NCBI RefSeq assembly: GCF_000014785.1
Contig: NC_008340.1
Location: forward strand, 720,001 to 752,000
Reading direction: 5' to 3'
Source of the DNA: Alkalilimnicola ehrlichii MLHE-1
GTDB taxonomy: Bacteria; Pseudomonadota; Gammaproteobacteria; Nitrococcales; Halorhodospiraceae
DNA: 32,000 bases
The notes beneath the pieces are model-generated. The model was not told where the DNA came from. It searched no databases and worked only from the letters and a program-made list of their open reading frames with translations. Positions 6,956-22,833 of this stretch are shown one piece after another (positions within the stretch are counted from its first letter, which is position 1; each line of letters starts with the position of its first letter). The translations under genes were made by a program, and so were the position numbers.

Positions 6956-9900
6956 TCAGGCCCCATGATGCAGTGGGGGTGGAGCCGCCATCAGTTGGCC
7001 GGCGCGCTCCGCATCCAGCGGGCGGCTGTAGTAAAAGCCTTGGATTTCGTCGCAGCCCAGCGCCTGTAATACCCGTAACTCGGCCGCGGTCTCCACCCCT
7101 TCGGCGATGACCCCAAGGCCAAGGCTGCGGGCGATGCTGATGATGGCCTGGTTGATCGCTGTGTCGTGGCCGCTGTCGCCTATGCCGCGGACGAAGGATT
7201 GGTCAATCTTCAGCTTGGCGATGGGCAATCGCTTGAGATAGCCGAGGTTGGAATAACCGGTCCCGAAATCGTCAATGGCCAGACTGATGCCCATTTCCCG
7301 AAGGGTCTGGAAACCGGTGACCACCGCCGGGTCGTCCTCACTCAAAAAGAGGCTTTCGGTGACCTCCAAGTGGAGCCCGTCACCAGGCAGGCCGCTGGTC
7401 TCCAGTGCCCGGCGCACGTCTGCGACCACGTCGCTGCGACGGAGCTGGACCACCGATAGATTCACCGAGACCGGTAGGGCGGGAAGCCCGGCCTGCCGCC
7501 AGGCGCGGTTCTGGCGGCAGGCCTCGCCGAGCACCCAGCGGCCCAGTGGGACGATCAGCCCCGTCTCCTCGGCGATGGGGATGAAGCGCGCCGGTGAGAT
7601 GTCGCCCTCGTCCCCGGCGTGCCAACGCAGCAGGGCCTCCATTCCGGTGAGGGTGCCGTCGGCCAGGCTTACCTGCGGCTGGTAATGTAGGCGGAATTCA
7701 CCCCGGTCCAGTGCGCGGCGCAGCCGGCTCTCCAGCGACAGGCGCTCGCGGGCGCGGCTGGTCATGTCGCTGCTGAAAAAGCGGTAGCCCTCATGGCCAC
7801 TGGCCTGTTTGGCCATCGACATGGCCGCATCCGCGTGACTGTGCAGGGTCTCGAGGTTATCCCCGTCTTCGGGGTAGAGTGCGATGCCCACGACGCTGGA
7901 GGGGGTCAGCTCCTGTCCGCTCAGGTCCAGTGGCTCGGCGACGCAGGCCATCAGGCGTTCGGCGGCTTGGGCCGCCTCGGTGGGCTTGTGGATCTCCGGC
8001 AGCAGGATCAGAAACTGATCGCTGCCGATCCGGGAGACCGTGCCCGCCCCGTTCACGTGGTCTTGCAGGCGCTGCGCCACCGTTTGCAGCACCTCGTCAC
8101 CGGCCACATGACCAAGGGTTTCGTTGATGATCTTGAAACGGTCGAGGTCCAGCGACAGCAGGGCCAGCCGGTAGTGCTGGTCCTGGGCGCGGCGCAACGC
8201 CTGTCCCAATCGGTCGGCGAGCAACCCGCGATTGGGCAGCCCGGTGACCGGATCGTGCTGGGCCAGGTAGCGGATGTGCGCCTCGCGATCCTTGGTCTCG
8301 GTAAGGTCAAGGCCTACCGCGATATAGTGGGTGATCCGCCCTGCCTCGTCCCGGACCACCGATAGGGTGAGCCAAAGGGGCGCGTTTTCGCCCCCCTTGC
8401 GCCGGTTCCAGATCTCGCCTTCCCAAAAGCCGTGGCGGCGGAGCCGGGCGAGTATACGGCGGTAGAACTGTTGCGTGTGGTGGGGGGAGCGGAGCATGTG
8501 CGGGCGCCGGCCGAGCACCTCGTCGGGGACATAGCCGGTGCGTTCAGTGAAGGCCCGGTTCACCCGCATTATCCGCTGTCTGGCATCGGTGATGATGATG
8601 GCCTCGGTGCTGTGCTCGAACACCTCCTCGGCCAGGCGCATCTGCTCTTCGGCCGCCTTGCGGGCCTGTTCCCGCTCTATGTTGTCCAGCGCGAACGAGA
8701 GGTCCCCGGTCATCTCCGCCATGAGCTGGATGATATCCGCGCTAAAAAAGCGCTCCTCGCTGGAGTAGACGGCCAATGCGCCGATGCAGTCGTCGCTCTG
8801 GAACAGGGGGAAGGCGGCGACCGAGCGAAACCCGCGGCGGGCCGCGGCGGCCTGCCAGGGGCCGGCGTCCGGGTGATCCAGGAACCGGTCGAACACGCTG
8901 GCCCGCCGCTGGCGGATGGCGCGTCCTACCGGGCCCCGGCTCTCCGGGCGCGCAGGATCGGTACTGATACGGATCTCGTCCAGATAACCCATGTCGCGAC
9001 CGGCCCGGCTCACCGGGGTGACGCGGCCACTGGCCTGATCCACCAACCCGATCCAGGCCATGTCGAGTCGGCCATACCGGACCACCACCTCGCAGGTCCG
9101 CTGGAACAATTCCTTGGGGTCGTCGATACGGATGATGACCTGATTGGCCTGGCTGAGGGCAGCGTAGAGATCGCGCAGTCGGCTGATCTCCTCGCGGGCC
9201 TGGACGTGGCCGGTCACGTCGTGGCTGATACAGAGCACATGGGCGATATTGCCGGTGTCATCGGTCTCCGGGACGATCAGCGCCTCGAAGTGGCGGACCC
9301 GGCCCTCGCGGTCCGGATGGGAAAAGGTCATGGTCCCGGGTTCGCCGCTTTCCAGCGCCTGGTTCAGGTGCCGCTCCCAGGTCGCGAGCAGTTTGCCGCG
9401 GAAGCCGACCTCCTCGTGTGTTCGGCCCAGGTAGTGCTCCCGCGGGATGCCGGTGAACGCCTCCAGGGCACGGTTGACGTAGAGATGCCGGAGGTCGCGG
9501 TCGAGTCGGACGATGATGTCGGGTGAGTTTTCCGCCAGGGTCTCGTAGGCCCGCTCTCGCGCGGCGAGGTCGGCCTGCGCCATCAACTCGGTGCGTAGCC
9601 GTCGGGCCTCCAGACCGTGCACATGGCCCCGCCACCAGAGGATGATGCCCGTGCCCGCTGCGACCACCAGCAGCAGACCGGTGGTGAAGCTCCAGCGCGC
9701 CAGGTGCCGGATATCCGCTTCCGGCGGGGGCGTGGGGGTACTGGAGACCTGGTGGTAGAAGAGGTAACCGAGCGCCGCCAATCCGCCGGCGAGCCCGGTC
9801 AGGATGCCCACGGGCACCCAGTAGTCGCCGGCAACGGGGAGCAGGTCGGAATCAGGGGCGCGAGGGCGCCGGGCCTGCTCTTCCAGCCGGGTGGTGTTGA

Positions 9901-10111
9901 TGGTAAAGCGGATCACTAGGTAGAGCAGCCCGGCGGTCACCAGCACGTAGAACCAGCCCTTGGCGGTTTGCAGCCGGGCCACCAGCTCGGTGTCCTCTAT
10001 GAGCACCAGCAACAGGCGGTCTGAGCCGAAAATCCACAGCAGCCCGAGCGCCGCGTAGGCCAGGCAGATGGTCAGGGCGGGGCCGTGGCCCGGTTTGCGC
10101 AAGGCTGGCAT
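6956..10111 (-). CDS. Membrane-anchored PAS-GAF-PAS-GGDEF(degenerate)-EAL c-di-GMP signalling protein, probably a phosphodiesterase
   Basis: 1051 aa. It has N-terminal TM helices and PAS segments (e.g. ENSPDIIVRLDRDLRHLYVNRA, FEHSTEAIIITDARQRIMRVNRAF). The GAF-like middle contains RLDMAWIGLVDQASG...ALAVYSSEE. The GGDEF domain carries RIGSDQF instead of RxGGDEF (8012-8026). The EAL domain is intact: EALLRW (EAL codons 7631-7639), DDFGTGYS, EGVET and QGFYYSRP. Confidence 0.9.
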   Translation of the reverse strand: MPALRKPGHGPALTICLAYAALGLLWIFGSDRLLLVLIEDTELVARLQTAKGWFYVLVTAGLLYLVIRFTINTTRLEEQARRPRAPDSDLLPVAGDYWVPVGILTGLAGGLAALGYLFYHQVSSTPTPPPEADIRHLARWSFTTGLLLVVAAGTGIILWWRGHVHGLEARRLRTELMAQADLAARERAYETLAENSPDIIVRLDRDLRHLYVNRALEAFTGIPREHYLGRTHEEVGFRGKLLATWERHLNQALESGEPGTMTFSHPDREGRVRHFEALIVPETDDTGNIAHVLCISHDVTGHVQAREEISRLRDLYAALSQANQVIIRIDDPKELFQRTCEVVVRYGRLDMAWIGLVDQASGRVTPVSRAGRDMGYLDEIRISTDPARPESRGPVGRAIRQRRASVFDRFLDHPDAGPWQAAAARRGFRSVAAFPLFQSDDCIGALAVYSSEERFFSADIIQLMAEMTGDLSFALDNIEREQARKAAEEQMRLAEEVFEHSTEAIIITDARQRIMRVNRAFTERTGYVPDEVLGRRPHMLRSPHHTQQFYRRILARLRRHGFWEGEIWNRRKGGENAPLWLTLSVVRDEAGRITHYIAVGLDLTETKDREAHIRYLAQHDPVTGLPNRGLLADRLGQALRRAQDQHYRLALLSLDLDRFKIINETLGHVAGDEVLQTVAQRLQDHVNGAGTVSRIGSDQFLILLPEIHKPTEAAQAAERLMACVAEPLDLSGQELTPSSVVGIALYPEDGDNLETLHSHADAAMSMAKQASGHEGYRFFSSDMTSRARERLSLESRLRRALDRGEFRLHYQPQVSLADGTLTGMEALLRWHAGDEGDISPARFIPIAEETGLIVPLGRWVLGEACRQNRAWRQAGLPALPVSVNLSVVQLRRSDVVADVRRALETSGLPGDGLHLEVTESLFLSEDDPAVVTGFQTLREMGISLAIDDFGTGYSNLGYLKRLPIAKLKIDQSFVRGIGDSGHDTAINQAIISIARSLGLGVIAEGVETAAELRVLQALGCDEIQGFYYSRPLDAERAGQLMAAPPPLHHGA

Positions 10112-10122
10112 GGGGCGTCCGT

Positions 10123-12868
<2,746 letters not shown>

Positions 12869-12885
<17 letters not shown>

Positions 12886-13096
12886 CCTGGCCGTCCTGGC
12901 GTGAACCGGCGCGTGGGCGGCGGTATAAGACCAGCCCGGTCAGCAGGATGATCAGCAGCCAGCTGAGGAAGAGGTAGACATAGAGGACGGGCAGGCCGAA
13001 CACCCAGCCGTCGCGGGCGAACAGGGATAGCAGGGGGTAGTTGAACAACAGCGCCGCAAGCAGGGCCAGGGCGACGATGCGCTCGGTACGTTGCAT
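12869..13096 (-). CDS. Small two-TM membrane protein (75 aa) translationally overlapped with the SLC5-kinase gene; CbrX-like by position
   Basis: The track ORF 12869..13198 would overlap the upstream gene. The internal ATG at 13096 lies 13 nt past that gene's stop and gives MQRTERIVALALLAALLFNYPLLSLFARDGWVFGLPVLYVYLFLSWLLIILLTGLVLYRRPRAG. Its 3' end overlaps the kinase start. A second module with the same arrangement is at 27455..27652. Confidence 0.6.
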
Positions 13097-13109
13097 GTGG
13101 GCTCCCGGG

Positions 13110-15269
13110 CTAACGGAATCGGGCCTGCTCTCTGCGGACCGTGACCACCTGCTCTGAGGCCTGGATTGCCTGGCCCAAAGTGACCACACCCCGTTCACGC
13201 AGAAGGGGAATCATTCGGGCGAAGACATCGGCGGTGACCCGCGCGTCGGCCAGTGCGCTGTGGCGCTTCTGGACTTCGACCCCCAGCCTCTCTGCCACGC
13301 CCTCCAGCGTGTGGTCGGGGGAATGGTCGTGCAAATACACCGACAATAGTAGCGTATCGAGCACCGGCTGGGGGAACGCCAGCCCGGCCCGGGCCTGTGC
13401 CCGGCGCAGAAACCCCATATCGAAGGCGGCATTGTGGGCCACCAGTACGCTCTCCTCGCCGATGAAGCGCGAGAAGGCCCGCAGAACCGGTCCGATCTCC
13501 GGCGCCCGTGCCACATCCTCGTTGCTGATGCCGTGGAAGCGGGTGGCGCTGTCCGGTATCGCCCGGCACGGTTTCACCAGTTGCTCGAAATACTCGTCCT
13601 GCAGCACCCGTCCGTTGACCAGACGCACGGCACCGATGGCGATGATCTCGTCGCCGCGCGCCGGCGACAGGCCGGTGGTCTCGGTATCGAAGACCACGCA
13701 ACTGAGCTGATCCAGCGCTCGCTCGGCCCACTCGCCCAACTGCGGCGGTTGCTGCGCCACGGAAAAGTCGTAAAACTCGTGCTGCACGGCGGGTGCGTGG
13801 CTGGGCGATTGCCATTGGCGCTCCGAGGCCGGTAGGGGGATGCGCAGAAAGGCGCACCCCGGGTCGCGTTCGCTGTGCTGGCTCCAGGCGACCGTGTGGT
13901 GCCGCTCCAGGAGGGTCCGCGCGGAGAGCTCGCCCCCCAGGTCCGGGAGGGGGGCGTCCAGCCATCGATCCAGGGTCTCGCTGGCGACCGGCCTGCCGCG
14001 CCAGGTGAGGTCGAGATAGACGCGTTGATCGCCCATCAGGGCCTCCACGGTCACCCGGTCCACCCCGTGCTCCCCGGCCAGGCGGGCGAGCAGATCCTCC
14101 AGTACCAGCCCAATCGCATGGCCCTCCGCGTGGACCCACAGCGGCAGCCCGACCTCGTCCACCCGGGGCAGGGCGCGCTGGCTGCGGCGCAATACACTGC
14201 CGAGCAGGTCAGCGGTGTAGAGATCGGCCATCACCCAGGGGGTGGAGACGAAGCGCTGCGCCTCGGCGGCCAGTTGCTCGAAGCGTGTCCCGAGGGCGCT
14301 GGTCTCCCGGGCCACTAAGGCCTCGAAGGCCTGGCGCTGTTCCGGGGTCATGTCCGCCCGCCGGTCCAGGCTGTCGGTGGCGGCCCGAAGGCTGGCCAGC
14401 GGTGCCCGCAAGGCCTCCATGGTCTGGCGTAGTCGTTGCTCCCGTTCGGCCATGCCCCGGAGCTCGCGGGTGATGTCGTCGAAGGTGAGCACAAAGGCGG
14501 ACTGTAACAGGCTGGAGGCGGGCAGAAGAGCGAGTTGGCAGTGGAGCAGGCTGCCCTGATCCTGGGTGGCGCAGACGAACTCCGTGCTGGCCTCGGTGAC
14601 CGCCTCGTCGGGCTCGGCCTTGCCTTCGCCCTCGTCGCGCTGGTGGCGCAGCAGCTCGAGGCTGTGCTCCAGCGGCGCCCGGGCGAGAATACCGTAAAGC
14701 GACCGGCACAGGCCCAGCGCCGGGTGGTCGCCGAGGATGGCGCGGGCGGCCGGATTGTAGAGCATGATGCGACCCTGCTCGTCGCAGACCACCACCCCCT
14801 GGCGCAGCCCGCGCAGGACGATCTCCAGCCGCGCCTTCTGGGCCTCCAGGCCGCGCGGGTCGCCGGTGATGGCCTTGGCCACCTCCTGCCGGCACTCGTA
14901 AAGTGCCCGTCCCAGGGTCTCGACCCGCTCGGGGAGTTCGCCCAGAAGGTGCGGGCCGGGCAGCTCGATCCGGTGGCTGGGGTTGCCGTGGCGCATGATG
15001 GCGGCGCCCCGGCTGACCGCCGCCGCGGCGGTGGCCAGGCGCTGGTCCAGCACCAGCCAGAGCAGGGCCAGCAGGCCGCCGAAGCCGAGCCCAAAGCCGC
15101 CCAATGCCAGGATGGCACGGCCCTGCTGGAGCTCGTCGGGCAGTTGCGGCACCAGGTAGCGGCCCAGCGCCAGCAGCGTAAGGACCAGCACCCCAACGGG
15201 CACCAGCAACAGGAGCCAAAACCGGGTGCGGGGCTCCAGTGCACGCGGCGGGCGGTGTGGTGCGGACAC
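13110..15269 (-). CDS. Membrane sensor: 2 TM - HAMP-like - PAS-like - degenerate HisKA/HATPase (pseudokinase) - C-terminal DEDDh 3'-5' exonuclease (DnaQ/RNase T fold)
   Basis: 719 aa with a GTG start. TM helices are FWLLLLVPVGVLVLTLLAL and LALGGFGLGFGGLLALLWLVL. The H-box-like RLRQTMEALRAPLASLRAA has Glu (14415-14417) where the neighbouring kinase has its phospho-His. The CA-like region lacks the N-box Asn and has G1 WRGRPV and G2 GGELSA. The exonuclease domain (about 13110-13712) has ExoI VVFDTETTG, ExoII LVAHNAAFDMGFL and ExoIII HSALADARVTADVF. Confidence 0.85.
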   Translation of the reverse strand: MSAPHRPPRALEPRTRFWLLLLVPVGVLVLTLLALGRYLVPQLPDELQQGRAILALGGFGLGFGGLLALLWLVLDQRLATAAAAVSRGAAIMRHGNPSHRIELPGPHLLGELPERVETLGRALYECRQEVAKAITGDPRGLEAQKARLEIVLRGLRQGVVVCDEQGRIMLYNPAARAILGDHPALGLCRSLYGILARAPLEHSLELLRHQRDEGEGKAEPDEAVTEASTEFVCATQDQGSLLHCQLALLPASSLLQSAFVLTFDDITRELRGMAEREQRLRQTMEALRAPLASLRAATDSLDRRADMTPEQRQAFEALVARETSALGTRFEQLAAEAQRFVSTPWVMADLYTADLLGSVLRRSQRALPRVDEVGLPLWVHAEGHAIGLVLEDLLARLAGEHGVDRVTVEALMGDQRVYLDLTWRGRPVASETLDRWLDAPLPDLGGELSARTLLERHHTVAWSQHSERDPGCAFLRIPLPASERQWQSPSHAPAVQHEFYDFSVAQQPPQLGEWAERALDQLSCVVFDTETTGLSPARGDEIIAIGAVRLVNGRVLQDEYFEQLVKPCRAIPDSATRFHGISNEDVARAPEIGPVLRAFSRFIGEESVLVAHNAAFDMGFLRRAQARAGLAFPQPVLDTLLLSVYLHDHSPDHTLEGVAERLGVEVQKRHSALADARVTADVFARMIPLLRERGVVTLGQAIQASEQVVTVRREQARFR

Positions 15270-15290
15270 GGCGCTGGCGCGGGCCCGTGG

Positions 15291-15662
15291 TCAGTCCGCG
15301 CCCAGGAGCTCTCGCACCTTGTCGATGACCTCCTGGGTGGAAAAAGGCTTGGTGATGTAGTCGTCGGCGCCCAGGGAAAGCCCCTTCTCGCGCTCCACGT
15401 CGCGCCCTTTGGCCGTCAACATCACGACCAGAATGTCCTTCCAGTCATCGCTGGCCCGGATGGTCTCGCAGACCTCGTAGCCGTTCTTGCGCGGCATCAT
15501 GACGTCCAGCAGGACCAGATCGGGCTTCGCCCGCTCGATTGCCTCCAGCGCCTCGTCACCGTCGGTCGCGGTCTCTACCTCGTAGCCCGCCTGTTTCATC
15601 AGGAATTCCAGCGACAGGACGATGTTGGCCTCATCGTCGACGATGAGTATGCGTTTCGGCAT
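15291..15662 (-). CDS. Stand-alone CheY-like receiver (REC) protein
   Basis: Track ORF 15291..15740. I prefer the ATG at 15662, preceded by GGAGGAG, giving MPKRILIVDDEANIV. Acidic pocket DDE, phospho-Asp in LVLLDVMMP, MLTAK and ITKPF are all intact. 123 aa with no output domain. Confidence 0.9.
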   Translation of the reverse strand: MPKRILIVDDEANIVLSLEFLMKQAGYEVETATDGDEALEAIERAKPDLVLLDVMMPRKNGYEVCETIRASDDWKDILVVMLTAKGRDVEREKGLSLGADDYITKPFSTQEVIDKVRELLGAD

Positions 15663-15756
15663 GTGTGAAGCTCCTCCGGTCACGGCCCGTTTGGGATGGC
15701 GCCGCCGCATCGGCGTGTGGGGGCGGCGGGGCCCTGGCAATGGGCCTGTATCCTTA

Positions 15757-15784
15757 ATTGTACCCGGCTTTTTCGTTATGAAAA
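15757..15784 (-). promoter_or_regulatory. Candidate sigma70 promoter for the REC/exonuclease genes (minus strand: TTTTCA - 16 nt - TACAAT)
   Basis: This is the only AT-rich patch in the 150-nt gap between the DUF294 gene stop and the REC start. The match was made by eye and is weak at -35. Confidence 0.25.
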
Positions 15785-15812
15785 TGCGGTATCGCCCGTG
15801 ATCCCGGCGGGG

Positions 15813-17690
15813 TCAGGCCCCGAACCGGGCGTGCATGTTCTCCTGGAAGCGTTTGATGACCCGCATGGCCAGGGTGAGGCTCTGGCGCGCCAGGGGATGG
15901 AGATCGTCCGGCGCCACCAGTTTGTCCAGTGGCTCCCCGGCCTCGCACTGGGCCAGTTGGTGGGAGAGCAGCAGGTCGAGCAGGTCCTCGTGGGCGGCGA
16001 TGATCGACTCGGCCGCATCAGCGCTGAGCACGCCCTGCCGCACCAGCGCGTGTACCCGCCCGCACGTGTTGGTCTCCTGAATCCCGGCTGCTACCGCATG
16101 GACCCGGGCGCAGTTGGCGATGATGCGCAGGCCCTGGCGTTTGATGTCGATCTTGCCGCGGTTGGCGCCTCGATCCGGGGTCACCAGGCGGTTGAACAGC
16201 CCCAGCGGCGGTCGACCCTCGGCATCGTCCATGGCCAGGGCCCGCAGCGCCCTCGGGTGGGTTGGCAGGGTGTCGAGGACGTGGCGCCAGAGGCTGTCCA
16301 CCAGCCGGTCCTCGCCGTAGAGCAGCTCGAAGTCGAGCACGATGTTGCTCCAACGGGCCGCCTTGCTCCCGGGGTACTGGGCGGCACGGGTAAAGCTGGT
16401 CTGCCATTCCTCAAGGGTCTTCTGGTAAGCGGGGTTACGCGCCATGATCTCGCCCGGGCAGATGGCGTAGCCCACCTCGCCCAGGTTGACATTCACCCGG
16501 TCGCAGAAGGTCTCGAACCACTGTTTCTCCGCCGCCGACAGTGGCCCCGGCTCGTCATCGATGATGATGCCGTTGTCCTGGTCGGGCTCGAACAGCATCT
16601 CCCGGCGCCCCCCGGAGCCCATGATGATGAGCGCATAGGGGCGTGGCGCCGTGCCGTGGCCCTCGCGCTGGATCTCCTCCAGGGTCAGGTCAATGCAGCG
16701 CCTTTGCAGGGCGAGGTGGAACTCGCTGATCACCCAGGCTGCCTGGCTGGCGTCGCGATGGCTTTCGAAGGCGTCGCGCACCACTTTGCCGGTGTTGCGG
16801 TAGAGGCGCTGGAGCTGTTTCAGGTTGCCGGCGTTGTAGGCCAGCTCCAGGGCGGTGCTCTCCTGCATCAGCAGGGCGCGGAGGATGTTGGTCTGTGACA
16901 GCATGCCGGCGGGTTTGCCCTCGTCCATCACCACCAGGTATTTCTGGCGCAGTTCCGACTGCAGGGCCTCGGCCTTCCACAGGGGGGTGTCCGGGCTGAT
17001 GGGGATGGTCGGCCGGGTGATGCTGCTGATCGGTGCGGACGGCGGGTAGCCGGTGCCCAGCACCGCGTGCGCCAGGTCCGGCGCCGTGACCAATCCGAGC
17101 AGGTTGCCGTCCGGGGCCATGACCCCCATCGAGCCGATGCAGCGGGCCTGCATCTCGCCGTGTACCGACATCAGGGTGTCGGTGCTGCGGCAGGTGGCCA
17201 GGGGGCTGTTCATCGCCGTCCGCACCGGGCGTGCCAGCGCACCGGTGGGGGCCTGATTGGCGTAGCTGCGGGCGCGGATGCGCTGGGTGATGACCTGCTC
17301 GAGGGCATCGTGCAGGCCGGGGTGCGCCTCCTCCAGCGCCCGCACGCGCTGAAAGGGGACCACGGCGAGCTGCGCGGGCCGGGTGACCACGGCGGTTGCG
17401 CTGTAGGGTTGATTGTCCAGGTAACTGGAGATGCCCAGCAGGCAGATGGCCTCGCGCAGCGCGGTCTCGCCGTTGGGGTAGACCAGGTCGGCGGCCCCCT
17501 CGAGCAGCACGAACAGCGCGCCGGGGTCGGCTTCGCCCAGCCGGAACAGGGTGTCGCCGGGTTCGGCGTGGCGGATCTCGGCATCCTGGATGAGGGTACT
17601 CAGCGCCGCCGGGTCCATGTGGTGCAGGGGGCGGCTCTTGGCCAACTCGGTGATATCGGGCGGTGCCTGCCCGCCGGCGTCTTCGGCCAT
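15813..17690 (-). CDS. cNMP-binding - CBS pair - DUF294 nucleotidyltransferase - DUF294_C signalling protein
   Basis: 625 aa with RBS GGGGAGAA. The N-terminal cyclic-nucleotide-binding-like barrel contains IRHAEPGDTLFRLGEADPGALFVLLEGAADLV. Two CBS repeats follow. The pol-beta-type NTase motif is YALIIMGSGGRREMLFEPDQDNGIIID, and the C-terminus is a helical substrate-binding-like region. Confidence 0.85.
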   Translation of the reverse strand: MAEDAGGQAPPDITELAKSRPLHHMDPAALSTLIQDAEIRHAEPGDTLFRLGEADPGALFVLLEGAADLVYPNGETALREAICLLGISSYLDNQPYSATAVVTRPAQLAVVPFQRVRALEEAHPGLHDALEQVITQRIRARSYANQAPTGALARPVRTAMNSPLATCRSTDTLMSVHGEMQARCIGSMGVMAPDGNLLGLVTAPDLAHAVLGTGYPPSAPISSITRPTIPISPDTPLWKAEALQSELRQKYLVVMDEGKPAGMLSQTNILRALLMQESTALELAYNAGNLKQLQRLYRNTGKVVRDAFESHRDASQAAWVISEFHLALQRRCIDLTLEEIQREGHGTAPRPYALIIMGSGGRREMLFEPDQDNGIIIDDEPGPLSAAEKQWFETFCDRVNVNLGEVGYAICPGEIMARNPAYQKTLEEWQTSFTRAAQYPGSKAARWSNIVLDFELLYGEDRLVDSLWRHVLDTLPTHPRALRALAMDDAEGRPPLGLFNRLVTPDRGANRGKIDIKRQGLRIIANCARVHAVAAGIQETNTCGRVHALVRQGVLSADAAESIIAAHEDLLDLLLSHQLAQCEAGEPLDKLVAPDDLHPLARQSLTLAMRVIKRFQENMHARFGA

Positions 17691-17839: not shown

Positions 17840-17922
17840 CCGAAGGGGTGGTCGGCCGGTGTCCGGTGCCGGTGACCGGGGGTAACTGACTGATCCTGGG
17901 GCCGACGTCCGGCCCTGGAGGG

Positions 17923-17938
17923 TGGCACGATTCTCGCT
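17923..17938 (+). promoter_or_regulatory. Sigma54 (RpoN) -24/-12 promoter TGGCACGATTCTCGCT upstream of the SSS transporter gene
   Basis: TGGCACG matches the -24 consensus exactly. GG (17924-17925) and GC (17936-17937) have the canonical 12-nt offset. The -12 region is TCGC against the consensus TTGC. It lies about 137 nt upstream of the ATG at 18074. This is the only intergenic TGGCAC in the window. Confidence 0.6.
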
Positions 17939-18073: not shown

Positions 18074-20179
18074 ATGGAAGCCAAGGCGGTATGGCTGTTC
18101 ATCTTTGTGGCCATCTACTGGGGCTACTGCGTGTTCTGGGGGGTGCGGGGCGCCATGGAGGCGCGGACCGCCACCGACTACTTCGTGGCCGGCCGCAGTG
18201 TCTCCATGTGGGTGTTTATCCTGGCCGCCACCGCCACCTCCTTCTCCGGCTGGACCTTTATTGGCCACCCGGGGCTGATCTACCAGGATGGCCTGCAGTA
18301 CGCCTACGCCTCCTTCTACGCCATCACCATTCCGTTCACCGGGCTGCTGTTCCTGAAGCGCCAGTGGATGATCGGCAAGCGCTGGGGCTTCGTCACCCCG
18401 GGGGAGATGTTTGCCACCTACTACCGCTCCGATACCCTGCGCATCCTCATCGTGCTGGTGGCGCTGATCTTCGCCGTGCCCTATCTCGGGGTGCAGTTGC
18501 GGGCCTCGGGCTTTCTGTTCAACGTGCTCACCGACGGCATGCTGGGGGTGGAGGTGGGCATGTGGTTGCTGTCCGCCATCATCGTCTTCTATGTGGCCTC
18601 CGGGGGGCTGCGGGCAGTGGCCTACGTGGATGCGCTGCAGGCGATATTGCTGGCGGCCGGCATCGTCATCGTGGGTGGGGTCGCGGTCTACTTCATGGGC
18701 AGCTGGGGGGTGTTCGTGGAGGGCATCGCGCGGCTGGCGGAGCAGTCCGTGGCCAGCGGCGAGTACGTTACCCCCGCCGGACTGAGCGGCTATGTCGCCG
18801 TGCCGGGTGTGATCCAGTTCGTCAGTGACGGGCCCTCGGCCACCGGCGGCGCCTGGACCGGGCTGATGATCCTGACCTACATGTTCGCCCTGATGGGCAT
18901 TCAGTCCAGTCCGGCCTTCAGCATGTGGGCCTTCTCCAACGCCAACCCGCGCCCCTTTGCCCCGCAGCAGGTCTGGGCCTCGGCGGTGGGTATCGGCCTC
19001 ATCCTGTTCACCTTCACCGCCATCCAGGGCATGGGTGGCCATCTGCTGGGTGCCAACCTGGGCTTCACCGCCGACAACCCTGACCTGTTCGACAGCCGTG
19101 ATCGGGTGGTGTTGCAGCGCGGACTGATCGCCACCGCTGAGCCGGCGCTCTCCCGCGACGAGGTGGAGGCCCGGATCGAGTCCGGATTGGCGGCGCTCGC
19201 CGCCGCGGGGCCGGACGAGACGGTGGACCTGGCGGGCGACCACGGGTGGGTGGACCTGGAGGCCCACGGCGGCGGCGACCCGGCGCTGGTGCCCCAGATG
19301 ATCAGCCTGCTGGAGGTGGGGGCCCCCTGGCTGGTAGGCCTGCTGGCGGTCTGTGCCCTGGCCGCCATGCAGTCCACCGGCGCTGCTTATATGTCTACCT
19401 CGGGGGGCATGATCACCCGCGATATTCTGCGCCGGTACCTGATACCGGAGGCGGATCATGCCACCCAGAAACTCTGGGGGCGGGTGTTCGTGCTGCTGAT
19501 TGTCGCCGCCGCCTTGGTCACCGCCACCGTCGCCACCGATGCCCTGGTGTTGCTGGGCGGCTTGGCTGTGGCCTACGGCTTCCAGATGTGGCCGGCGCTG
19601 ATCGGCTTGTGCTTTTGGCCCTGGCTTACTCGCCAGGGGGTGGTCGCCGGCCTGATCGTTGGGCTGGTGGTGGTCACGCTGACAGAGAACATCGGTGTGC
19701 AGTTGCTGGCCGCCCTCGGCCTGGAGTGGTGGGGCCGGTGGCCCTGGACGCTGCACTCGGCGGGATGGGGCATTCTGTTCAATATCACCACCGCGATCCT
19801 GGTCTCCGCCATCACCCAGGATCGCGGTGAATTGGAACACCGGATGGTCTATCACCACTTCCTGCAGGAGCATGCTGGTCTGCCGGTGGCCAAGCGCCAT
19901 CTGATCCCGGTGGCCTGGATCCTCACCATTGGCTGGTTCTTCTTCGCTGTGGGACCGGGCACGGTCATCGGCAACACCCTGTTCGGCTACCCCCAGTCCT
20001 TCCTCTTCGGGCTCCCTTCCATCTGGGTTTGGCAGCTCCTTTTCTGGGCCGCCGGGTGTCTGCTGCTCTACTTCCTGGCCTACCGCATGGAACTGAGCAC
20101 CGTGCCACGCAAAGAGGTGGAGGTGCTGGCCGAGGATGAGCCCGGGGACATTCGTCTCGACATCCACCGCCCGTCGTAG
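18074..20179 (+). CDS. Sodium:solute symporter (SSS/SLC5) family transporter; substrate unknown, monocarboxylate/acetate plausible from context
   Basis: 701 aa, polytopic. The N-terminal block DYFVAGRSVSMWVFILAATATSFSGWTFIGHPGLIY and the block VASGGLRAVAYVDALQAILL are typical SSS motifs. There is no DUF485/YjcH-type small gene upstream. Confidence 0.85.
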   Translation: MEAKAVWLFIFVAIYWGYCVFWGVRGAMEARTATDYFVAGRSVSMWVFILAATATSFSGWTFIGHPGLIYQDGLQYAYASFYAITIPFTGLLFLKRQWMIGKRWGFVTPGEMFATYYRSDTLRILIVLVALIFAVPYLGVQLRASGFLFNVLTDGMLGVEVGMWLLSAIIVFYVASGGLRAVAYVDALQAILLAAGIVIVGGVAVYFMGSWGVFVEGIARLAEQSVASGEYVTPAGLSGYVAVPGVIQFVSDGPSATGGAWTGLMILTYMFALMGIQSSPAFSMWAFSNANPRPFAPQQVWASAVGIGLILFTFTAIQGMGGHLLGANLGFTADNPDLFDSRDRVVLQRGLIATAEPALSRDEVEARIESGLAALAAAGPDETVDLAGDHGWVDLEAHGGGDPALVPQMISLLEVGAPWLVGLLAVCALAAMQSTGAAYMSTSGGMITRDILRRYLIPEADHATQKLWGRVFVLLIVAAALVTATVATDALVLLGGLAVAYGFQMWPALIGLCFWPWLTRQGVVAGLIVGLVVVTLTENIGVQLLAALGLEWWGRWPWTLHSAGWGILFNITTAILVSAITQDRGELEHRMVYHHFLQEHAGLPVAKRHLIPVAWILTIGWFFFAVGPGTVIGNTLFGYPQSFLFGLPSIWVWQLLFWAAGCLLLYFLAYRMELSTVPRKEVEVLAEDEPGDIRLDIHRPS

Positions 20180-20193
20180 GTTGGACCCGGGCC

Positions 20194-20772
20194 ATGGATG
20201 AACGGCAATACCGGTTTATCAAGTGGGCGGCGATCACGTTGGCGCTACTCTGGGTGGGCTGGACGGTGTACGACGGTGTGCTCAGCCAGCGGGGGCCCGG
20301 CGACAATGCGACCCTGGCCGGTGATCGGGCCTTCTCCGACGGCCACCCCGAACGCGCTGAGCGCCGCTACCGCGAGGCACTGGCGCAGGCACCGAAGCAC
20401 CGCCGCGCCCGCCGGGGACTGGCGCTGGCGCTGATGGAGCAGGGCCGCTATGACGAGGCATTGGCCGCGATGAATGAGGTCATCCGCGGTGAGCCCGACT
20501 TCGCTGGCAACTACGCCAACCGGGGCATTCTGCACGATCGGATGGGCCGCCACTTGGAGGCACTGCACGATTACGAGCGGGCCCTGGTCATGGACCCCGG
20601 CCTGGCCGACGGCCCCGGCTGGTTAACCCGTTTTATTCGCTTGCAGAGCGAGCCCCCGCCCACCATTGCCGATCGGGCCGCCTATCTGCGCCAGCAGCTC
20701 CAGTTGCCGGAGGCGCAGCGGGAACTTCGCCGCCCGGCGGTGGACGAGGCCCAGCGGCCCTGGCGCCAGTAG
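20194..20772 (+). CDS. Membrane-anchored TPR-repeat protein
   Basis: 192 aa. One N-terminal TM helix (WAAITLALLWVGWTVY), then TPR-like repeats (AERRYREALAQAP, YDEALAAMNEVIRGEPDFAGNYANRGILHDRMGRHLEALHDYERALVMDP). Confidence 0.7.
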   Translation: MDERQYRFIKWAAITLALLWVGWTVYDGVLSQRGPGDNATLAGDRAFSDGHPERAERRYREALAQAPKHRRARRGLALALMEQGRYDEALAAMNEVIRGEPDFAGNYANRGILHDRMGRHLEALHDYERALVMDPGLADGPGWLTRFIRLQSEPPPTIADRAAYLRQQLQLPEAQRELRRPAVDEAQRPWRQ

Positions 20773-20895: not shown

Positions 20896-22833
20896 TTACT
20901 TGTTGGGACGATCCTCGATCAGATTGTCCACGACCGTCGGATCGGCCAGGGTGCTGGTGTCGCCCAGGCTGTCCAGCTCGTTGGCGGCGACCTTGCGCAG
21001 GATGCGGCGCATGATCTTGCCGGAGCGGGTCTTGGGCAGGCCCGGGGCCCACTGGATGACATCGGGCTTGGCGATGGGCCCGATCTCGTTGGAGACCAGC
21101 TTCACCAACTCCTTCTTCAGCTCATCGCTGGGCTCCACACCGGCCATTAGAGTGACGTAGGCGTAGATGCCCTGGCCCTTGATGTCGTGCGGGTAGCCCA
21201 CCACCGCGGCTTCGGCGACGGCATCGTGCAGCACCAGGGCACTCTCCACCTCGGCGGTGCCCATACGGTGGCCGGAGACGTTGATCACGTCATCGACGCG
21301 GCCGGTGATCCAATAGTAACCGTCCTCGTCCCGACGGGCCCCGTCACCGGTGAAGTACATCCCCGGGTAGGCCGCCAGGTAGGTCTCCATGAAGCGCTTG
21401 TGGTCGCCATAGACCGTACGCATCATGCTCGGCCAGGCCCGCTTGATCACCAGGTTGCCGCTGGCGGCACCTTCCAGCTCCTTGCCTTCGGGGTCCACCA
21501 GGGCCGGCTCCACGCCGAAGAAGGGCAGGGTGGCGGAACCCGGCTTCAGGTCGGTCGCGCCCGGCAGCGGGGCGATCAGGATGGAGCCGGTCTCAGTCTG
21601 CCACCAGGTGTCCACGATCGGGCAGCGGCCGTCGCCCACCACGTTGTAGTACCACTCCCAGGCCTCCGGGTTGATGGGCTCACCCACCGTGCCCAGGATG
21701 CGCAGGCTCTTGCGGCTGGTCTTGGTGACGTGCTCGTTGCCCTGGCCCATCAGGGCGCGGATGGCGGTCGGGGCGGTGTAGAAGATGGAGACGTTGTGCT
21801 TGTCGACCACTTCCCAGCAGCGGGCGGCGCTGGGGTAGGTGGGCACACCCTCGAACATCAGGGTGGTGGCGCCGTTGGCCAGCGGACCATAGACGATGTA
21901 GCTGTGACCGGTAACCCAGCCCACGTCGGCGGTGCACCAGTAGACCTCGCCCTCCTGGTAGTCGAAGACGTACTTGTGGGTCATGGCTGCGCCCAGCAGG
22001 TAGCCGGCGGAGCAGTGCTGCACGCCCTTGGGCTTGCCGGTGGAGCCGGAGGTGTAGAGGATGAACAGCGGGTCCTCGGCGTCCAGTTCCTCAGCGGGGC
22101 AGTCGGCAGAGACATCGGCCACGGCCTCGTGGTACCAGATGTCACGCCCTTCCTTCCAGTCGATGTCGCCCCCGGTGCGCTTGACCACGAAGACGTTCTT
22201 GACGTCGGGGCAGCTCTCAAGGGCCTTGTCGGCGTTGGACTTCAGGGCCACGTTGCGGCCACCACGGACGCCCTCGTCGGCGGTGATGACGGTCTCGCAG
22301 TCGGCGTTCTGGATGCGGTCCTTCAGGGCGTCCGGGGAGAAGCCGCCGAAGACGATGGAGTGGATGGCGCCGATGCGGGCGCAGGCCAGCATGGCCACGG
22401 CCGCCTCGGGGATCATCGGCAGATAGATGCAGACGCGGTCACCCTTCTTGACGCCGCGGGCCTTCATGGCGTTAGCCAGGCGGCAGACGCGCTCGTGCAG
22501 GTCCTTGTAGGTGATGTGCTCGGAGTTGTTGGGGTCGTCACCTTCCCAGATGATGGCGGTCTGATCGCCCCGCTGCTCCAGGTGGCGGTCCAGGCAGTTG
22601 TGGGCGACGTTGAGCTTACCGCCCTCGAAGAAGCGGATCTCGCCGTTCTTCAGGTCGGAGTGGTAGACCTTGTCCCACTTGCTGAACCAGTCGAGGAATT
22701 TCTCAGCCTGTTCGCCCCAAAACCCCTCCGGGTCATCCAGGGACCGGCGATACATCTCCTCATAGGTGTCCTTGGTGATGTGCGCCTTCTCGCGGATATA
22801 GTCGGGTACGGGGTAGACCTTCGTGTCGGACAT
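20896..22833 (-). CDS. acs: Acetyl-CoA synthetase (AMP-forming)
   Basis: 645 aa with RBS GGAGGAG. Full-length hallmark motifs are present: [60 protein letters not shown] and [15 protein letters not shown]. Confidence 0.97.

What the first reader, a model, noticed from the sequence alone, without database searches (positions are those of the whole stretch)
6956..17690. Six-gene signalling operon with a kinase lacking an output regulator, an orphan REC, a pseudokinase-nuclease and an EAL phosphodiesterase
All six genes are on the minus strand with very small gaps or overlaps. REC to sensor-exonuclease is 21 nt, and exonuclease to small ORF is 13 nt. The small ORF overlaps the SLC5 kinase, and the kinase to GGDEF-EAL gap is 11 nt. 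Only the DUF294 to REC gap (150 nt) could hold an internal promoter. The SLC5-STAC kinase has no receiver and no DNA-binding partner here, and the only candidate phosphoacceptor is the 123-aa single-domain REC. Receiver domains normally dock on DHp helices. My inference is that phospho-REC may dock on the dead DHp of the neighbouring pseudokinase and switch its exonuclease. The last gene is an EAL enzyme, whose product is linear pGpG. DEDDh enzymes of the Orn type are the established pGpG and nanoRNA degraders. The operon may therefore encode a sensor-controlled two-step c-di-GMP removal route (c-di-GMP to pGpG to GMP) tied to solute sensing through the SLC5 domain. This is a hypothesis only.
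Basis: inference. Interest (0 to 1): 0.65.

Follow-up and report, generated by a model that had tools for sequence, protein, structure and literature searches.

The report
Sensor kinase module controlling an exonuclease
This is a gene cluster conserved across many bacterial groups in which a transporter-like sensor kinase and a small receiver protein probably switch a membrane-anchored "dead kinase" fused to a DNA/RNA-trimming enzyme, apparently to tune uptake and use of acetate-type nutrients; the proposed c-di-GMP disposal role is not supported.

Summary
Six same-strand genes with the stated gaps lie at 6956-17690 in Alkalilimnicola ehrlichii: a cNMP-CBS-DUF294 nucleotidyltransferase, a 123-aa receiver (REC), a TM-PAS-pseudokinase-DEDDh exonuclease (EXO), a CbrX-like 2-TM peptide, an SLC5/STAC histidine kinase, and a PAS-GAF-PAS-GGDEF(degenerate)-EAL protein.

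Comparative genomics splits the cluster. In 80 loci from many phyla:
- REC sits directly upstream of EXO in 67 of 77.
- The SLC5 kinase (38 of 52), DUF294 (44 of 52) and acs (16 of 52) co-occur.
- The GGDEF-EAL gene is never adjacent. It follows the kinase only in Alkalilimnicola and Alkalispirillum.

The exonuclease is PolC/epsilon-like, not Orn-like. The c-di-GMP to pGpG to GMP idea therefore fails its own refutation test.

The pseudokinase reading holds. The profile and the predicted fold match histidine kinases. The phospho-His position is Glu or Asp and never His, and the N-box Asn is lost.

Best model: SLC5/STAC kinase to REC~P to pseudo-DHp docking (as in DivL-DivK) to control of the exonuclease. 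The exonuclease would work with DUF294 on monocarboxylate uptake and activation. The short DUF294/exonuclease pair is already known as a CrbS/R (MxtR/ErdR) target of unknown function, so this is a new wiring variant of a known kind.

The parts
15813..17690 (-). cNMP-binding, 2x CBS, DUF294 and DUF294_C: a GlnD/GlnE-like nucleotidyltransferase (625 aa)
   Evidence: Pfam E 1e-9 to 2e-45. The pol-beta signature GSGGRREMLFEPDQD is visible in the translation. Co-occurs with EXO in 44 of 52 loci.
15757..15784 (-). Sigma-70-like promoter candidate (TTTTCA-16-TACAAT) in the 150-nt DUF294-REC gap
   Evidence: Consensus scan. This is a pattern match only. It fits the variable position of DUF294 relative to REC-EXO in other genomes.
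15291..15662 (-). Stand-alone receiver (REC, 123 aa) with phospho-acceptor D53
   Evidence: Pfam Response_reg 9e-31. D53, T83 and K105 are at least 90% conserved in 67 orthologues. Directly upstream of EXO in 67 of 77 loci. The top 120 homologues are stand-alone receivers of about 123-126 aa, with a few longer records up to 184 aa.
14868..15269 (-). EXO N-terminus: two TM helices and a HAMP-like helical linker (residues 1-134)
   Evidence: AlphaFold2 helices 13-42, 46-94 and 112-134. R14 and W18 are nearly invariant.
14475..14858 (-). EXO PAS domain (residues 138-265)
   Evidence: Weak Pfam PAS hits. PAS fold in the model. Conserved LYNPAA and GLGRS motifs.
13827..14471 (-). EXO pseudo-histidine-kinase core: DHp-like hairpin (residues 267-341) and degenerate CA-like domain (348-481)
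   Evidence: The profile hits histidine kinases in PDB (9m08_C 2.7e-7; WalK 2e-3). Foldseek matches WalK, YF1, VicK and ThkA. The His position is E/D/other and never H in 80 loci. The N-box Asn is replaced (alignment).
13116..13703 (-). EXO DEDDh 3'-5' exonuclease domain (residues 523-718)
   Evidence: RNase_T 4e-40. D528, E530, D617, H670 and D675 are invariant. Closest are PolC-exo 2p1j (1e-28) and epsilon (2e-14); rmsd about 2 A to epsilon and PolC.
12869..13096 (-). CbrX-like 75-aa two-TM hairpin peptide, translationally coupled to the kinase
   Evidence: The stop overlaps the kinase start (ATGTCTGA). Homologues lie upstream of the kinase in at least 24 loci. Analogy to CbrX, which binds the CbrA SLC5 domain (PMC13022988, PMC6591292).
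10123..12876 (-). SLC5-STAC-DHp-CA histidine kinase (917 aa), non-hybrid, with no PAS
   Evidence: PDB 10ED (CbrXA SLC5-STAC) 6e-76 and HK853 4e-41. 33% identity over 683 aa to the CbrA-like paralogue. HisKA and HATPase_c present. His conserved in 52 of 52.
6956..10111 (-). TM-PAS-GAF-PAS-GGDEF(degenerate, GSDQF)-EAL protein: a lineage-specific addition to the operon
   Evidence: Pfam. NCBIfam DibA-like phosphodiesterase (PDE). Motifs read. Found downstream of the kinase only in Alkalispirillum, not in Halorhodospira or the other 80 loci.
17923..17937 (+). Sigma-54 -24/-12 promoter-like element upstream of the divergent SSS symporter gene
   Evidence: TGGCACGATTCTCGC. Conserved in Alkalispirillum and Halorhodospira.
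18074..20772 (+). Divergent SSS-family symporter (701 aa) and TPR protein: conserved context
   Evidence: Pfam and NCBIfam. The same pair faces DUF294 in L081, L083 and L084.
20896..22833 (-). Acetyl-CoA synthetase (acs): conserved context
   Evidence: NCBIfam acetate--CoA ligase, 1101 bits. Within 10 kb of EXO in 16 of 52 loci.

Best explanation
The conserved unit is a five-gene signalling module linked to monocarboxylates. It is not a c-di-GMP disposal route.

Proposed mechanism:
1. A CbrX-like membrane hairpin and an SLC5/STAC 'transceptor' histidine kinase sense a transported solute or transport state. An acetate- or pyruvate-type acid is inferred.
2. The kinase autophosphorylates on its conserved His and transfers the phosphate to D53 of the stand-alone REC.
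3. REC~P does not bind DNA. It docks on the DHp-like hairpin of the membrane-anchored PAS-pseudokinase-exonuclease protein. That kinase core has lost the phospho-His (Glu/Asp instead) and the ATP-binding N-box, so it serves as a receiver-sensing input, as in DivL-DivK.
4. This docking switches the C-terminal DEDDh 3'-5' exonuclease on or off. The PAS domain adds a second input.
5. The exonuclease works together with the cNMP/CBS-gated DUF294 (GlnD/GlnE-like) nucleotidyltransferase on a shared, still unknown nucleic-acid or nucleotidylated substrate. The outcome adjusts expression or activity of the neighbouring SSS symporter and acs.

In Pseudomonas the same kinase family controls the short DUF294/exonuclease pair transcriptionally, through CrbR. 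Here the control is post-translational.

The GGDEF-EAL gene is a recent passenger in the Alkalilimnicola/Alkalispirillum operon. It adds a c-di-GMP output without being mechanistically tied to the nuclease.

Shown: gene content, domain states, synteny.
Inferred: phosphotransfer, REC docking, nuclease regulation, substrate.
For: - Synteny in 80 loci from many phyla. REC is directly upstream of EXO in 67 of 77. SLC5-HK is present in 38 of 52, DUF294 in 44 of 52 and acs in 16 of 52. The gene order is permuted (small-HK-REC-EXO in 42 loci, REC-EXO-small-HK in 10), but REC-EXO stays adjacent.
- REC-EXO persists where the kinase is not nearby, for example in Rhodobacterales loci L065, L074, L076 and L080.
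- Pseudokinase: profile hit to histidine kinases; AlphaFold2 model with pLDDT 84 showing TM-PAS-DHp-CA-exo; Foldseek top hits WalK, YF1, VicK and ThkA. The His position is E 57, D 9, other 14 and H 0 of 80.
- The pseudo-HK domain occurs almost only in proteins of about 700 aa; 561 cluster representatives score E<=1e-10.
- The exonuclease catalytic DEDDh residues are invariant.
- The kinase and REC are intact and of matching class, HK853/WalK and RR468/WalR.
- The small ORF is CbrX-like (PMC13022988).
- Literature on the short pair. PP_0354/PP_0353 are the strongest MxtR/ErdR targets, and deletion of PP_0353 impairs growth on pyruvate, as does deletion of actP-I (PMC9927547; bioRxiv 10.64898/2026.09.07.749794). 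Pflu5625 is in the CrbS/R regulon (PMC5715377). [quoted passage not shown]
- Reverse signalling from a REC to a pseudokinase has a precedent in DivL-DivK (PMC4211667).
Against: - No experiment or structure shows REC binding to the pseudo-DHp.
- Mutual information between REC and the pseudo-DHp on 68 true pairs gave no interface signal. It was uninformative because REC helix alpha1 is nearly invariant.
- Paralogues without REC or kinase (P0011 locus; L008, L011 and L072) keep the same pseudo-DHp motif, so the motif does not strictly require an adjacent REC.
- No Shine-Dalgarno sequences are evident at the 21-nt and 11-nt junctions.
- The substrates of the exonuclease and of DUF294 are unknown.
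- The Pseudomonas knock-outs have only mild phenotypes.
- The SSS symporter is adjacent in few of the distant loci by my tblastn criterion (2 of 52).
Confidence: 0.5

Rival explanations
1. The EAL protein linearises c-di-GMP to pGpG, and the REC-controlled DEDDh exonuclease acts as an Orn-like pGpG/nanoRNA hydrolase. Together they give a sensor-gated two-step c-di-GMP removal route.
For: - In this genome and in Alkalispirillum the EAL gene follows the kinase by 11 nt, in the same operon.
- The EAL catalytic motifs are intact and the GGDEF is degenerate, so the protein is probably a pure phosphodiesterase (PDE) (DibA-like).
- Orn is also a DEDDh enzyme (general knowledge).
Against: - The GGDEF-EAL gene is not co-conserved. 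None is adjacent in 80 loci; 5 of 52 have one at least 3 kb away, which is about the background rate. Halorhodospira has an alpha/beta hydrolase gene at that position.
- The exonuclease is PolC/epsilon-like (2p1j 1e-28). No oligoribonuclease appears among PDB sequence hits at E<=10, nor in the Foldseek top 50.
- The conserved partner of the nuclease is DUF294, with acs and symporters, and not c-di-GMP enzymes.
Confidence: 0.06
2. The pseudokinase acts upstream, not downstream. Like DivL on CckA, the EXO protein's DHp/PAS region binds and modulates the SLC5/STAC kinase or sequesters REC~P. The exonuclease would then be constitutively active or regulated only by the PAS domain.
For: - Both proteins are membrane-anchored, and their DHp helices belong to the same HisKA subtype.
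- DivL is a precedent for a pseudokinase that regulates a true kinase (PMC4211667; 4q20 is among the kinase hits).
Against: - REC-EXO adjacency (67 of 77) is tighter than HK-EXO co-occurrence (38 of 52), and persists in loci without the kinase.
- Paralogues without any kinase nearby keep the pseudokinase.
Confidence: 0.15
3. REC is a generic single-domain regulator. It could be a phosphate sink, or it could act on another target such as the symporter, acs, DUF294 or the motility apparatus. Its adjacency to EXO would reflect only co-expression, and EXO would be regulated by its own PAS/TM sensor.
For: - Stand-alone receivers often act as sinks or bind diverse targets (general knowledge).
- No covariation signal was found with the pseudo-DHp.
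- REC-less EXO paralogues exist.
Against: - REC-EXO adjacency survives gene-order permutation and large phylogenetic distance, often with overlapping or nearly abutting genes (gaps of -24 to 50 nt in about 20 loci).
- It would leave unexplained why a kinase core without His and N-box is kept in more than 500 protein clusters.
Confidence: 0.2
4. The exonuclease protein is a DnaQ-type DNA proofreading or repair paralogue that lies next to signalling genes by chance.
For: - Source annotations read 'DNA polymerase III subunit epsilon'.
- The closest solved structures are proofreading exonucleases.
Against: - It is fused to a TM-PAS-pseudokinase sensor in a fixed architecture of about 700 aa.
- It shows conserved synteny with REC, the SLC5 kinase, DUF294 and acs.
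- The short homologue is regulated by CrbS/R and has carbon-source phenotypes (PMC9927547).
Confidence: 0.03

Closest known systems
CrbS/CrbR (MxtR/ErdR) system and its target pair PP_0354/PP_0353 (PA3233/PA3232, Pflu5625)
   Same: Both have an SLC5/STAC sensor kinase. Both have a cNMP-CBS-DUF294 nucleotidyltransferase followed by an RNase_T/DEDDh exonuclease gene. Both are linked to acs and to acetate- or pyruvate-type symporters (PMC5715377, PMC9927547, PMC9765439).
   Different: CrbS is a hybrid kinase with its own REC. It signals to the LuxR-type regulator CrbR, which transcribes the pair. Here the kinase has no REC, and there is no DNA-binding regulator in the operon. The phosphoacceptor is a stand-alone REC, and the exonuclease carries a TM-PAS-pseudokinase input of about 500 aa. 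The function of the pair is unknown in both cases.
CbrX-CbrA transceptor (PDB 10ED) with CbrB
   Same: An SLC5 domain homologous to CbrA (6e-76). A small two-TM ORF overlaps the kinase start, as cbrX does (PMC6591292, PMC13022988). The kinase is non-hybrid.
   Different: There is no PAS domain between STAC and DHp, and no NtrC-type partner for this kinase. A true CbrA/CbrB-like pair with its own CbrX-like ORF lies elsewhere in the window (23173-27682). The small ORF shows no detectable sequence similarity to solved chains.
DivL-DivK reverse signalling in Caulobacter
   Same: A histidine-kinase core that has lost the phospho-His and is proposed to read the phosphorylation state of a single-domain receiver (PMC4211667). 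Both have PAS domains upstream of the dead DHp.
   Different: DivL has Tyr at the His position, keeps a CA domain and acts on the kinase CckA. Here the position is Glu/Asp, the CA is degenerate, and the output is a covalently fused exonuclease. REC binding is untested here.
Oligoribonuclease (Orn), the pGpG/nanoRNA hydrolase
   Same: The DEDDh catalytic residues are shared.
   Different: No detectable specific similarity. Orn is absent from PDB sequence hits at E<=10 and from the Foldseek top 50, whereas PolC-exo, epsilon, DinG-exo, Cas2-DEDDh, ExoX and RNase T are found. Orn is a small soluble dimer with no sensor domains (general knowledge).
HK853-RR468 and WalK-WalR class two-component pairs
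   Same: The kinase core is closest to HK853 (4e-41) and WalK. REC is closest to YycF/WalR (7e-34) and is also close to RR468 (2e-25), a stand-alone receiver.
   Different: The input is an SLC5/STAC transporter domain. The downstream target of REC is not a DNA-binding domain.

Membership tests
SLC5/STAC histidine kinases (CbrA, CrbS, RpuS) | N-terminal 13-TM SLC5/SSS transporter domain | tested here: met
   phmmer hit to CbrXA structure 10ed_A, E 6.3e-76, residues 6-469. 33% identity to the CbrA-like paralogue over 683 aa. Weak Pfam SSF hit.
SLC5/STAC histidine kinases (CbrA, CrbS, RpuS) | STAC four-helix domain between SLC5 and the kinase core | tested here: inconclusive
   Residues about 545-640 align with the corresponding region of the CbrA-like paralogue and hold conserved blocks (WrG...RflG, LAGaiGxASARvm). 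No STAC model was available, and the 10ED match reported covers only the SLC5 part.
SLC5/STAC histidine kinases (CbrA, CrbS, RpuS) | Functional DHp-CA core (H-box His; N, G1 and G2 boxes) | tested here: met
   HisKA 1e-20 and HATPase_c 1e-28. SHELRTPL His conserved in 52 of 52 orthologues. NLLSNA, DNGPG and GSGLGL are visible.
CrbS (MxtR) orthologues | Hybrid kinase with C-terminal REC and a LuxR-type partner, CrbR | tested here: not met
   The protein ends after HATPase_c at residue 907 of 917. No LuxR-type regulator is present in the window.
Histidine kinases (applied to the EXO protein) | Phospho-acceptor His in DHp helix 1 | tested here: not met
   The aligned position is Glu in the window and E/D/R/T/K/Q/F/G in 80 loci, never His.
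Histidine kinases (applied to the EXO protein) | ATP-binding N-box Asn and G2 lid in the CA domain | tested here: not met
   In the profile alignment to 9m08_C the N-box Asn aligns with Arg or His. There is no Gly-rich G2 motif. Only the G1-like D420/G425 remain.
Histidine kinases (applied to the EXO protein) | DHp hairpin plus alpha/beta CA fold downstream of a PAS sensor | tested here: met
   AlphaFold2 model. Foldseek hits WalK 8e-20, YF1, VicK and ThkA.
DEDDh (DnaQ/RNase T) 3'-5' exonucleases | Exo I (DxE), Exo II (D) and Exo III (Hx4D) motifs | tested here: met
   D528, E530, D617, H670 and D675 are invariant in 14 and in 50 homologues. RNase_T 4e-40.
Oligoribonuclease (Orn) | Specific sequence or structure similarity to Orn rather than to other DEDDh clades | tested here: not met
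   No Orn chain appears among 26 PDB hits at E<=10 or in the Foldseek top 50. The best hits are PolC-exo and epsilon.
Oligoribonuclease (Orn) | Dinucleotide-restricted active site and pGpG hydrolysis | not testable with these tools
   Needs an enzyme assay or a substrate-bound structure.
Response-regulator receivers | Acidic pocket (DD), phospho-Asp, and the Thr and Lys switch residues | tested here: met
   D9/D10, D53, T83 and K105 are present. D53, T83 and K105 are at least 90% conserved in 67 orthologues.
OmpR-family transcription factors (source annotation of REC) | C-terminal winged-helix DNA-binding domain | tested here: not met
   The protein is 123 aa with only Response_reg. Most of the top 120 homologues are 122-130 aa; a few records run to 184 aa.
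EAL c-di-GMP phosphodiesterases | The EALxR, N, ExxE, DDFGTGYS, K, EGVE and Q motifs | tested here: met
   EALLR, VNLS, LEVTES, IDDFGTGYS, KLKIDQSF, AEGVET and IQGFYYSRP read in the translation. EAL 3e-74.
GGDEF diguanylate cyclases | GG(D/E)EF active-site motif | tested here: not met
   The motif reads GSDQF (RIGSDQF).
DUF294 / GlnD-GlnE-like nucleotidyltransferases | pol-beta signature G[SG]x9-13Dx[DE] plus the DUF294_C helical domain | tested here: met
   GSGGRREMLFEPDQD seen. DUF294 1e-40 and DUF294_C 2e-45. Activity and substrate were not tested.
Anti-phage defence systems (PADLOC) | Match to a complete known system | tested here: not met
   Only domain-level hits were found: Cas-associated DEDDh, and the cNMP domain of Pycsar effectors.

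The most novel reading that the evidence does not exclude
This would be a previously undescribed output class for two-component signalling. A phosphorylated stand-alone receiver is read by a dead histidine-kinase core that gates a fused DEDDh exonuclease. The exonuclease and a cNMP/CBS-gated GlnD-like nucleotidyltransferase would form a 'write/erase' pair acting on the 3' end of a regulatory RNA (or on a nucleotidylated protein), and that pair would set monocarboxylate uptake and activation. If so, it would at last assign a function to the DUF294/exonuclease pair of the CrbS/R regulon.
Probability: 0.2. Interest if true: 0.85.

Novelty: new variant of a known kind. Interest (0 to 1): 0.55.

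Why it matters
The DUF294/exonuclease pair is the most strongly CrbS/R (MxtR/ErdR)-dependent target in pseudomonads. It is widespread next to acs and carboxylate symporters, yet its function has resisted genetics.

The long form found here ties the nuclease physically, through a pseudokinase input, and genetically, through an adjacent receiver and an SLC5/STAC kinase, to phosphorylation signalling. That gives concrete, testable handles: phosphotransfer, REC~P binding and nuclease gating.

If confirmed, it would add a nuclease to the repertoire of two-component outputs. It would also be a second, much more widespread example of DivL-type reverse signalling.

The analysis also corrects an attractive but unsupported link to c-di-GMP and pGpG turnover.

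Tried and rejected
1. **c-di-GMP/pGpG route.** Rejected on synteny and on the exonuclease clade.
2. **Covariation (MI-APC) between REC and the pseudo-DHp/CA.** Run on 68 true locus pairs. The top pairs were not enriched at the expected interface (DHp alpha1 21% against 15% expected), and REC alpha1 is nearly invariant. The test was uninformative.
3. **AlphaFold2 of a REC + pseudo-DHp chimera.** Considered and not run. AF2 docks most REC/DHp pairs canonically and no PAE is returned, so the result would not discriminate.
4. **Small ORF against PDB sequences** (to link it to CbrX by sequence). No hit. The CbrX analogy rests on size, the two TM helices, the overlap with the kinase start and conserved position.
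5. **Rfam and tRNA scans of the window**, looking for a candidate RNA substrate. Nothing found.
6. **PADLOC**, to test a defence-system reading. Only domain-level hits.
7. **EXO-DUF294 fusion as Rosetta-stone evidence.** L018 turned out to be two adjacent ORFs. The only fused protein, P0113, has a truncated exonuclease and may be an artefact.
8. **Intrinsic terminators.** None was found at intergenic positions.
9. **Literature searches** for the long architecture (DUF294, COG2905, PA3232/3, CrbS + exonuclease, pseudokinase + exonuclease, combined terms). These found only the short pair.

Full report
**Source and gene map.** The window comes from Alkalilimnicola ehrlichii MLHE-1. The 719-aa protein is 100% identical to an NCBI protein on a 3.28-Mb contig. 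On the minus strand between 6956 and 17690 there are six ORFs. Pfam and NCBIfam assign their domains:
- 15813-17690: cNMP-binding, 2x CBS, DUF294, DUF294_C.
- 15291-15662: a 123-aa stand-alone receiver (REC).
- 13110-15269: a 719-aa protein (EXO) with weak PAS hits and a strong RNase_T/DEDDh domain.
- 12869-13096: a 75-aa ORF with two TM helices.
- 10123-12876: an SSF-like membrane domain followed by HisKA and HATPase_c.
- 6956-10111: PAS, GAF, PAS, GGDEF, EAL.

The gaps are 150, 21 and 13 nt, then an ATGTCTGA overlap, then 11 nt.

**Surroundings.** An SSS-family symporter (18074-20179) and a TPR protein (20194-20772) are transcribed divergently from the DUF294 gene. Then follow acs (20896-22833) and an NtrC-type sigma-54 activator (23173-24534). 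After these comes a 975-aa CbrA-like SLC5-PAS kinase (24538-27465). That kinase has its own overlapping two-TM small ORF at 27455-27682. The window therefore holds two SLC5 kinases, and only the CbrA-like one has a DNA-binding partner.

**The pseudokinase-exonuclease.**
- An alignment of 14 and then 50 homologues shows invariant DEDDh residues (D528, E530, D617, H670, D675).
- A profile of residues 272-492 finds histidine kinases in the PDB (9m08_C, E 2.7e-7; WalK 5c93 and 4u7n, about 2e-3). It aligns across DHp helix 1 through the first part of the CA domain.
- In that alignment the phospho-His position is Glu and the N-box Asn is Arg or His.
- Across 80 genomic loci the His position is E (57), D (9), R, T, K, Q, F or G, and never H. 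The neighbouring SLC5 kinase has His in 52 of 52.
- The AlphaFold2 model has mean pLDDT 83.9. It shows two TM helices, a helical linker, a PAS domain, a DHp-like hairpin (267-341), a CA-like alpha/beta domain (348-481) and the exonuclease (523-718).
- Foldseek matches the N-terminal two thirds to sensor kinases (WalK 8e-20, YF1, VicK, ThkA). It matches the C-terminus to PolC-exo and the epsilon subunit, with rmsd about 2 A and target TM-score about 0.85.
- The pseudokinase profile finds 561 cluster representatives at E<=1e-10 in 1.84 billion proteins. Most full-length ones are about 690-730 aa with the domain at about 255-480, so the architecture is fixed.

**Which exonuclease clade.**
- By sequence the domain is closest to a PolC-type exonuclease (2p1j, 1e-28). 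Next come PolC (1.5e-21), epsilon (1.8e-14), Cas2-DEDDh, DnaQ and DinG, and more weakly RNase T and ExoX.
- With the threshold relaxed to E<=10 no oligoribonuclease chain appears. NrnC is at 0.5.
- None is in the Foldseek top 50.

The 'Orn-type' premise is not met.

**Kinase, small ORF and REC.**
- The kinase's membrane domain matches the CbrXA SLC5-STAC cryo-EM structure 10ED (6e-76), and its core matches HK853 (4e-41).
- It is 33% identical over 683 residues to the window's CbrA-like paralogue, which includes the STAC region.
- It lacks a PAS domain and a receiver.
- The 75-aa ORF has two TM helices and overlaps the kinase start. Equivalents of 65-78 aa overlap the kinase gene in Halorhodospira and Alkalispirillum.
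- This mirrors cbrX. cbrX is translationally coupled to cbrA (PMC6591292), and its hairpin product binds the CbrA SLC5 domain (PMC13022988).
- REC has all the receiver switch residues. D53, T83 and K105 are at least 90% conserved in 67 orthologues.
- REC belongs to a very tightly conserved family. The top 120 homologues are 71-100% identical, and most are about 123-126 aa.
- REC is closest to the WalR/PhoP receivers and to RR468, the stand-alone partner of HK853.

Kinase and REC are therefore of matching class.

**Comparative genomics, the decisive test.** I scanned one genome per species for full-length EXO relatives. At least 493 stretches matched, and the best 80 loci were kept. They come from Gamma-, Beta- and Alphaproteobacteria, Nitrospirota, Chloroflexota, Acidobacteriota, Desulfobacterota and others. 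I searched the window's proteins against these loci with tblastn.

REC lies immediately upstream of EXO on the same strand in 67 of 77 loci that have enough upstream sequence. Among the 52 loci with at least 4.5 kb on both sides:

| Gene near EXO | Loci (of 52) |
|---|---|
| SLC5 kinase | 38 |
| Small ORF | at least 24 |
| DUF294 | 44 |
| acs | 16 |
| GGDEF-EAL homologue | 5 (always at least 3 kb away, never adjacent) |

- The gene order is either small-kinase-REC-EXO (42 loci) or REC-EXO-small-kinase (10 loci). REC-EXO stays together, including in Rhodobacterales loci that lack the kinase nearby.
- Alkalispirillum mobile (EXO 75% identical) has the same six genes plus IDH.
- Halorhodospira halophila (53% identical) keeps CbrA-like/NtrC-like, acs, TPR-small-SSF, and divergently DUF294-REC-EXO-small-kinase. 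It has an alpha/beta hydrolase gene where the GGDEF-EAL gene would be.
- A paralogous locus in A. ehrlichii reads SSF-small-TPR, then divergently DUF294-DUF294-EXO, with no REC or kinase.

Five genes form a conserved module. The EAL gene is a recent addition in one lineage.

**The EAL protein itself.** Its GGDEF motif is degenerate (GSDQF). Nothing beyond operon membership in two genera connects it to the nuclease.

**Literature.**
- The short DUF294/exonuclease pair is a known target of the SLC5/STAC system CrbS/CrbR (MxtR/ErdR), but its function is unresolved.
- Pflu5625 is in the P. fluorescens CrbS/R regulon and has no acetate phenotype (PMC5715377).
- PA3232-PA3235 are co-induced with actP (PMC9765439).
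- In P. putida, PP_0354/PP_0353 are the genes most dependent on MxtR/ErdR. Deletion of PP_0353 impairs growth on pyruvate, as does deletion of actP-I (PMC9927547; bioRxiv 10.64898/2026.09.07.749794).
- Fitness data show an RNase T/COG2905 neighbour cofit with a DUF4212 + SSS symporter in Shewanella and P. stutzeri. The authors suggest that it is needed for expression of the symporter (bioRxiv 10.1101/072470, section 42).
- DUF294_C belongs with the GlnD/GlnE C-terminal domains (PMC3710099).
- I found no description of the long TM-PAS-pseudokinase-exonuclease form or of its REC partnership. The library is incomplete.

**Mechanism proposed.**
- Shown: intact kinase and REC; a dead kinase core fused to an intact DEDDh nuclease; conserved REC-EXO adjacency; association with DUF294, acs and symporters.
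- Inferred:
  1. The CbrX-like/SLC5-STAC kinase phosphorylates REC.
  2. REC~P docks on the pseudo-DHp, as DivK~P does on DivL (PMC4211667).
  3. This docking gates the exonuclease, with PAS as a second input.
  4. The nuclease and the cNMP/CBS-gated DUF294 transferase act on a common, unknown substrate that controls monocarboxylate uptake and activation.

On this view Pseudomonas controls the pair transcriptionally through CrbR, whereas this lineage controls the nuclease post-translationally.

**Weak points.**
- Covariation between REC and the pseudo-DHp was uninformative.
- REC-less paralogues keep the same pseudo-DHp motif.
- The junctions show no clear ribosome-binding sites.
- The substrates are unknown.

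**Transcription signals.** Two sigma-70-like matches fall on the minus strand. One is upstream of DUF294 (17755-17783). The other is in the 150-nt DUF294-REC gap (15757-15784). Both are pattern matches only. A sigma-54 -24/-12 element (TGGCACGATTCTCGC, 17923-17937, plus strand) lies upstream of the symporter. It is conserved in Alkalispirillum and Halorhodospira and is preceded by GTTAC/GTAAC repeats. This suggests control of the symporter by the neighbouring NtrC-type, CbrB-like regulator.

**Verdict.**
- The structural inferences (orphan REC, receiver-less SLC5/STAC kinase, pseudokinase-nuclease, EAL enzyme) are right.
- The REC-to-dead-DHp idea is plausible and is strengthened by synteny.
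- The c-di-GMP to pGpG to GMP pathway is not supported.
- What remains is a widespread, uncharacterised wiring variant of the SLC5/STAC plus DUF294/exonuclease system. Interest is moderate to high (0.55), and novelty is 'new variant of a known kind'.

Noticed in passing
window 27455-27682 (-): A second CbrX-like small ORF (75 aa from a GTG start, two TM helices). Its stop overlaps the start (27465) of the CbrA-like 975-aa SLC5 kinase. The window therefore carries two CbrX/SLC5-kinase pairs.
   Followed up: partly
window 17923-17937 (+), with upstream repeats at about 17795-17845: A sigma-54 -24/-12-like element (TGGCACGATTCTCGC) 136-151 nt upstream of the SSS symporter ATG. It is conserved in Alkalispirillum (L084) and Halorhodospira (L083). 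It is preceded by GTTAC/GTAAC repeats that resemble CbrB-type enhancer half-sites. This suggests that the adjacent NtrC-type regulator drives the symporter.
   Followed up: partly
window 15204-15269 (-): The NCBI record starts the EXO protein 22 codons downstream (697 aa). The longer GTG start at 15269 keeps the nearly invariant R14 and W18 and the whole predicted first TM helix, so the deposited start is probably too short.
   Followed up: partly
window 15291-15662 (-): Sources name the REC protein 'response regulator transcription factor' or 'OmpR family'. It is a 123-aa stand-alone receiver with no DNA-binding domain, as are most of its top 120 close homologues (122-130 aa).
   Followed up: yes
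L081 1942-12190 (same species, second locus): A paralogous module: SSF (724 aa), a small 79-aa ORF and TPR, divergent from DUF294 (603 aa), DUF294 (375 aa, no sensor domains) and EXO (729 aa). A DDE transposase is inserted in the divergent promoter region. There is no REC or SLC5 kinase. A short sensor-less DUF294 next to the long one also recurs in Rhodocyclales loci (L028, L029, L033, L054).
   Followed up: partly
P0113 (metagenomic representative, 1154 aa): A single protein reading PAS, pseudokinase, truncated RNase_T (exo motif III missing), CBS, DUF294, DUF294_C. It is either a real fusion of the two partners or a frameshift or assembly artefact.
   Followed up: partly
window 11001-13000 and 26001-27000: AT skew jumps to about +0.25 over the two SLC5 membrane domains encoded on the minus strand. 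This compositional signature reflects T-rich hydrophobic codons and is not a mobile-element boundary.
   Followed up: no
window 6835-6875 (-), downstream of the GGDEF-EAL stop: An inverted repeat (CCACGGGG ... CCCCGTGG) with a long loop and no T-run lies in the 180-nt gap before the isocitrate/isopropylmalate dehydrogenase gene. That gene has its own good Shine-Dalgarno sequence. The repeat may mark the end of the operon.
   Followed up: no
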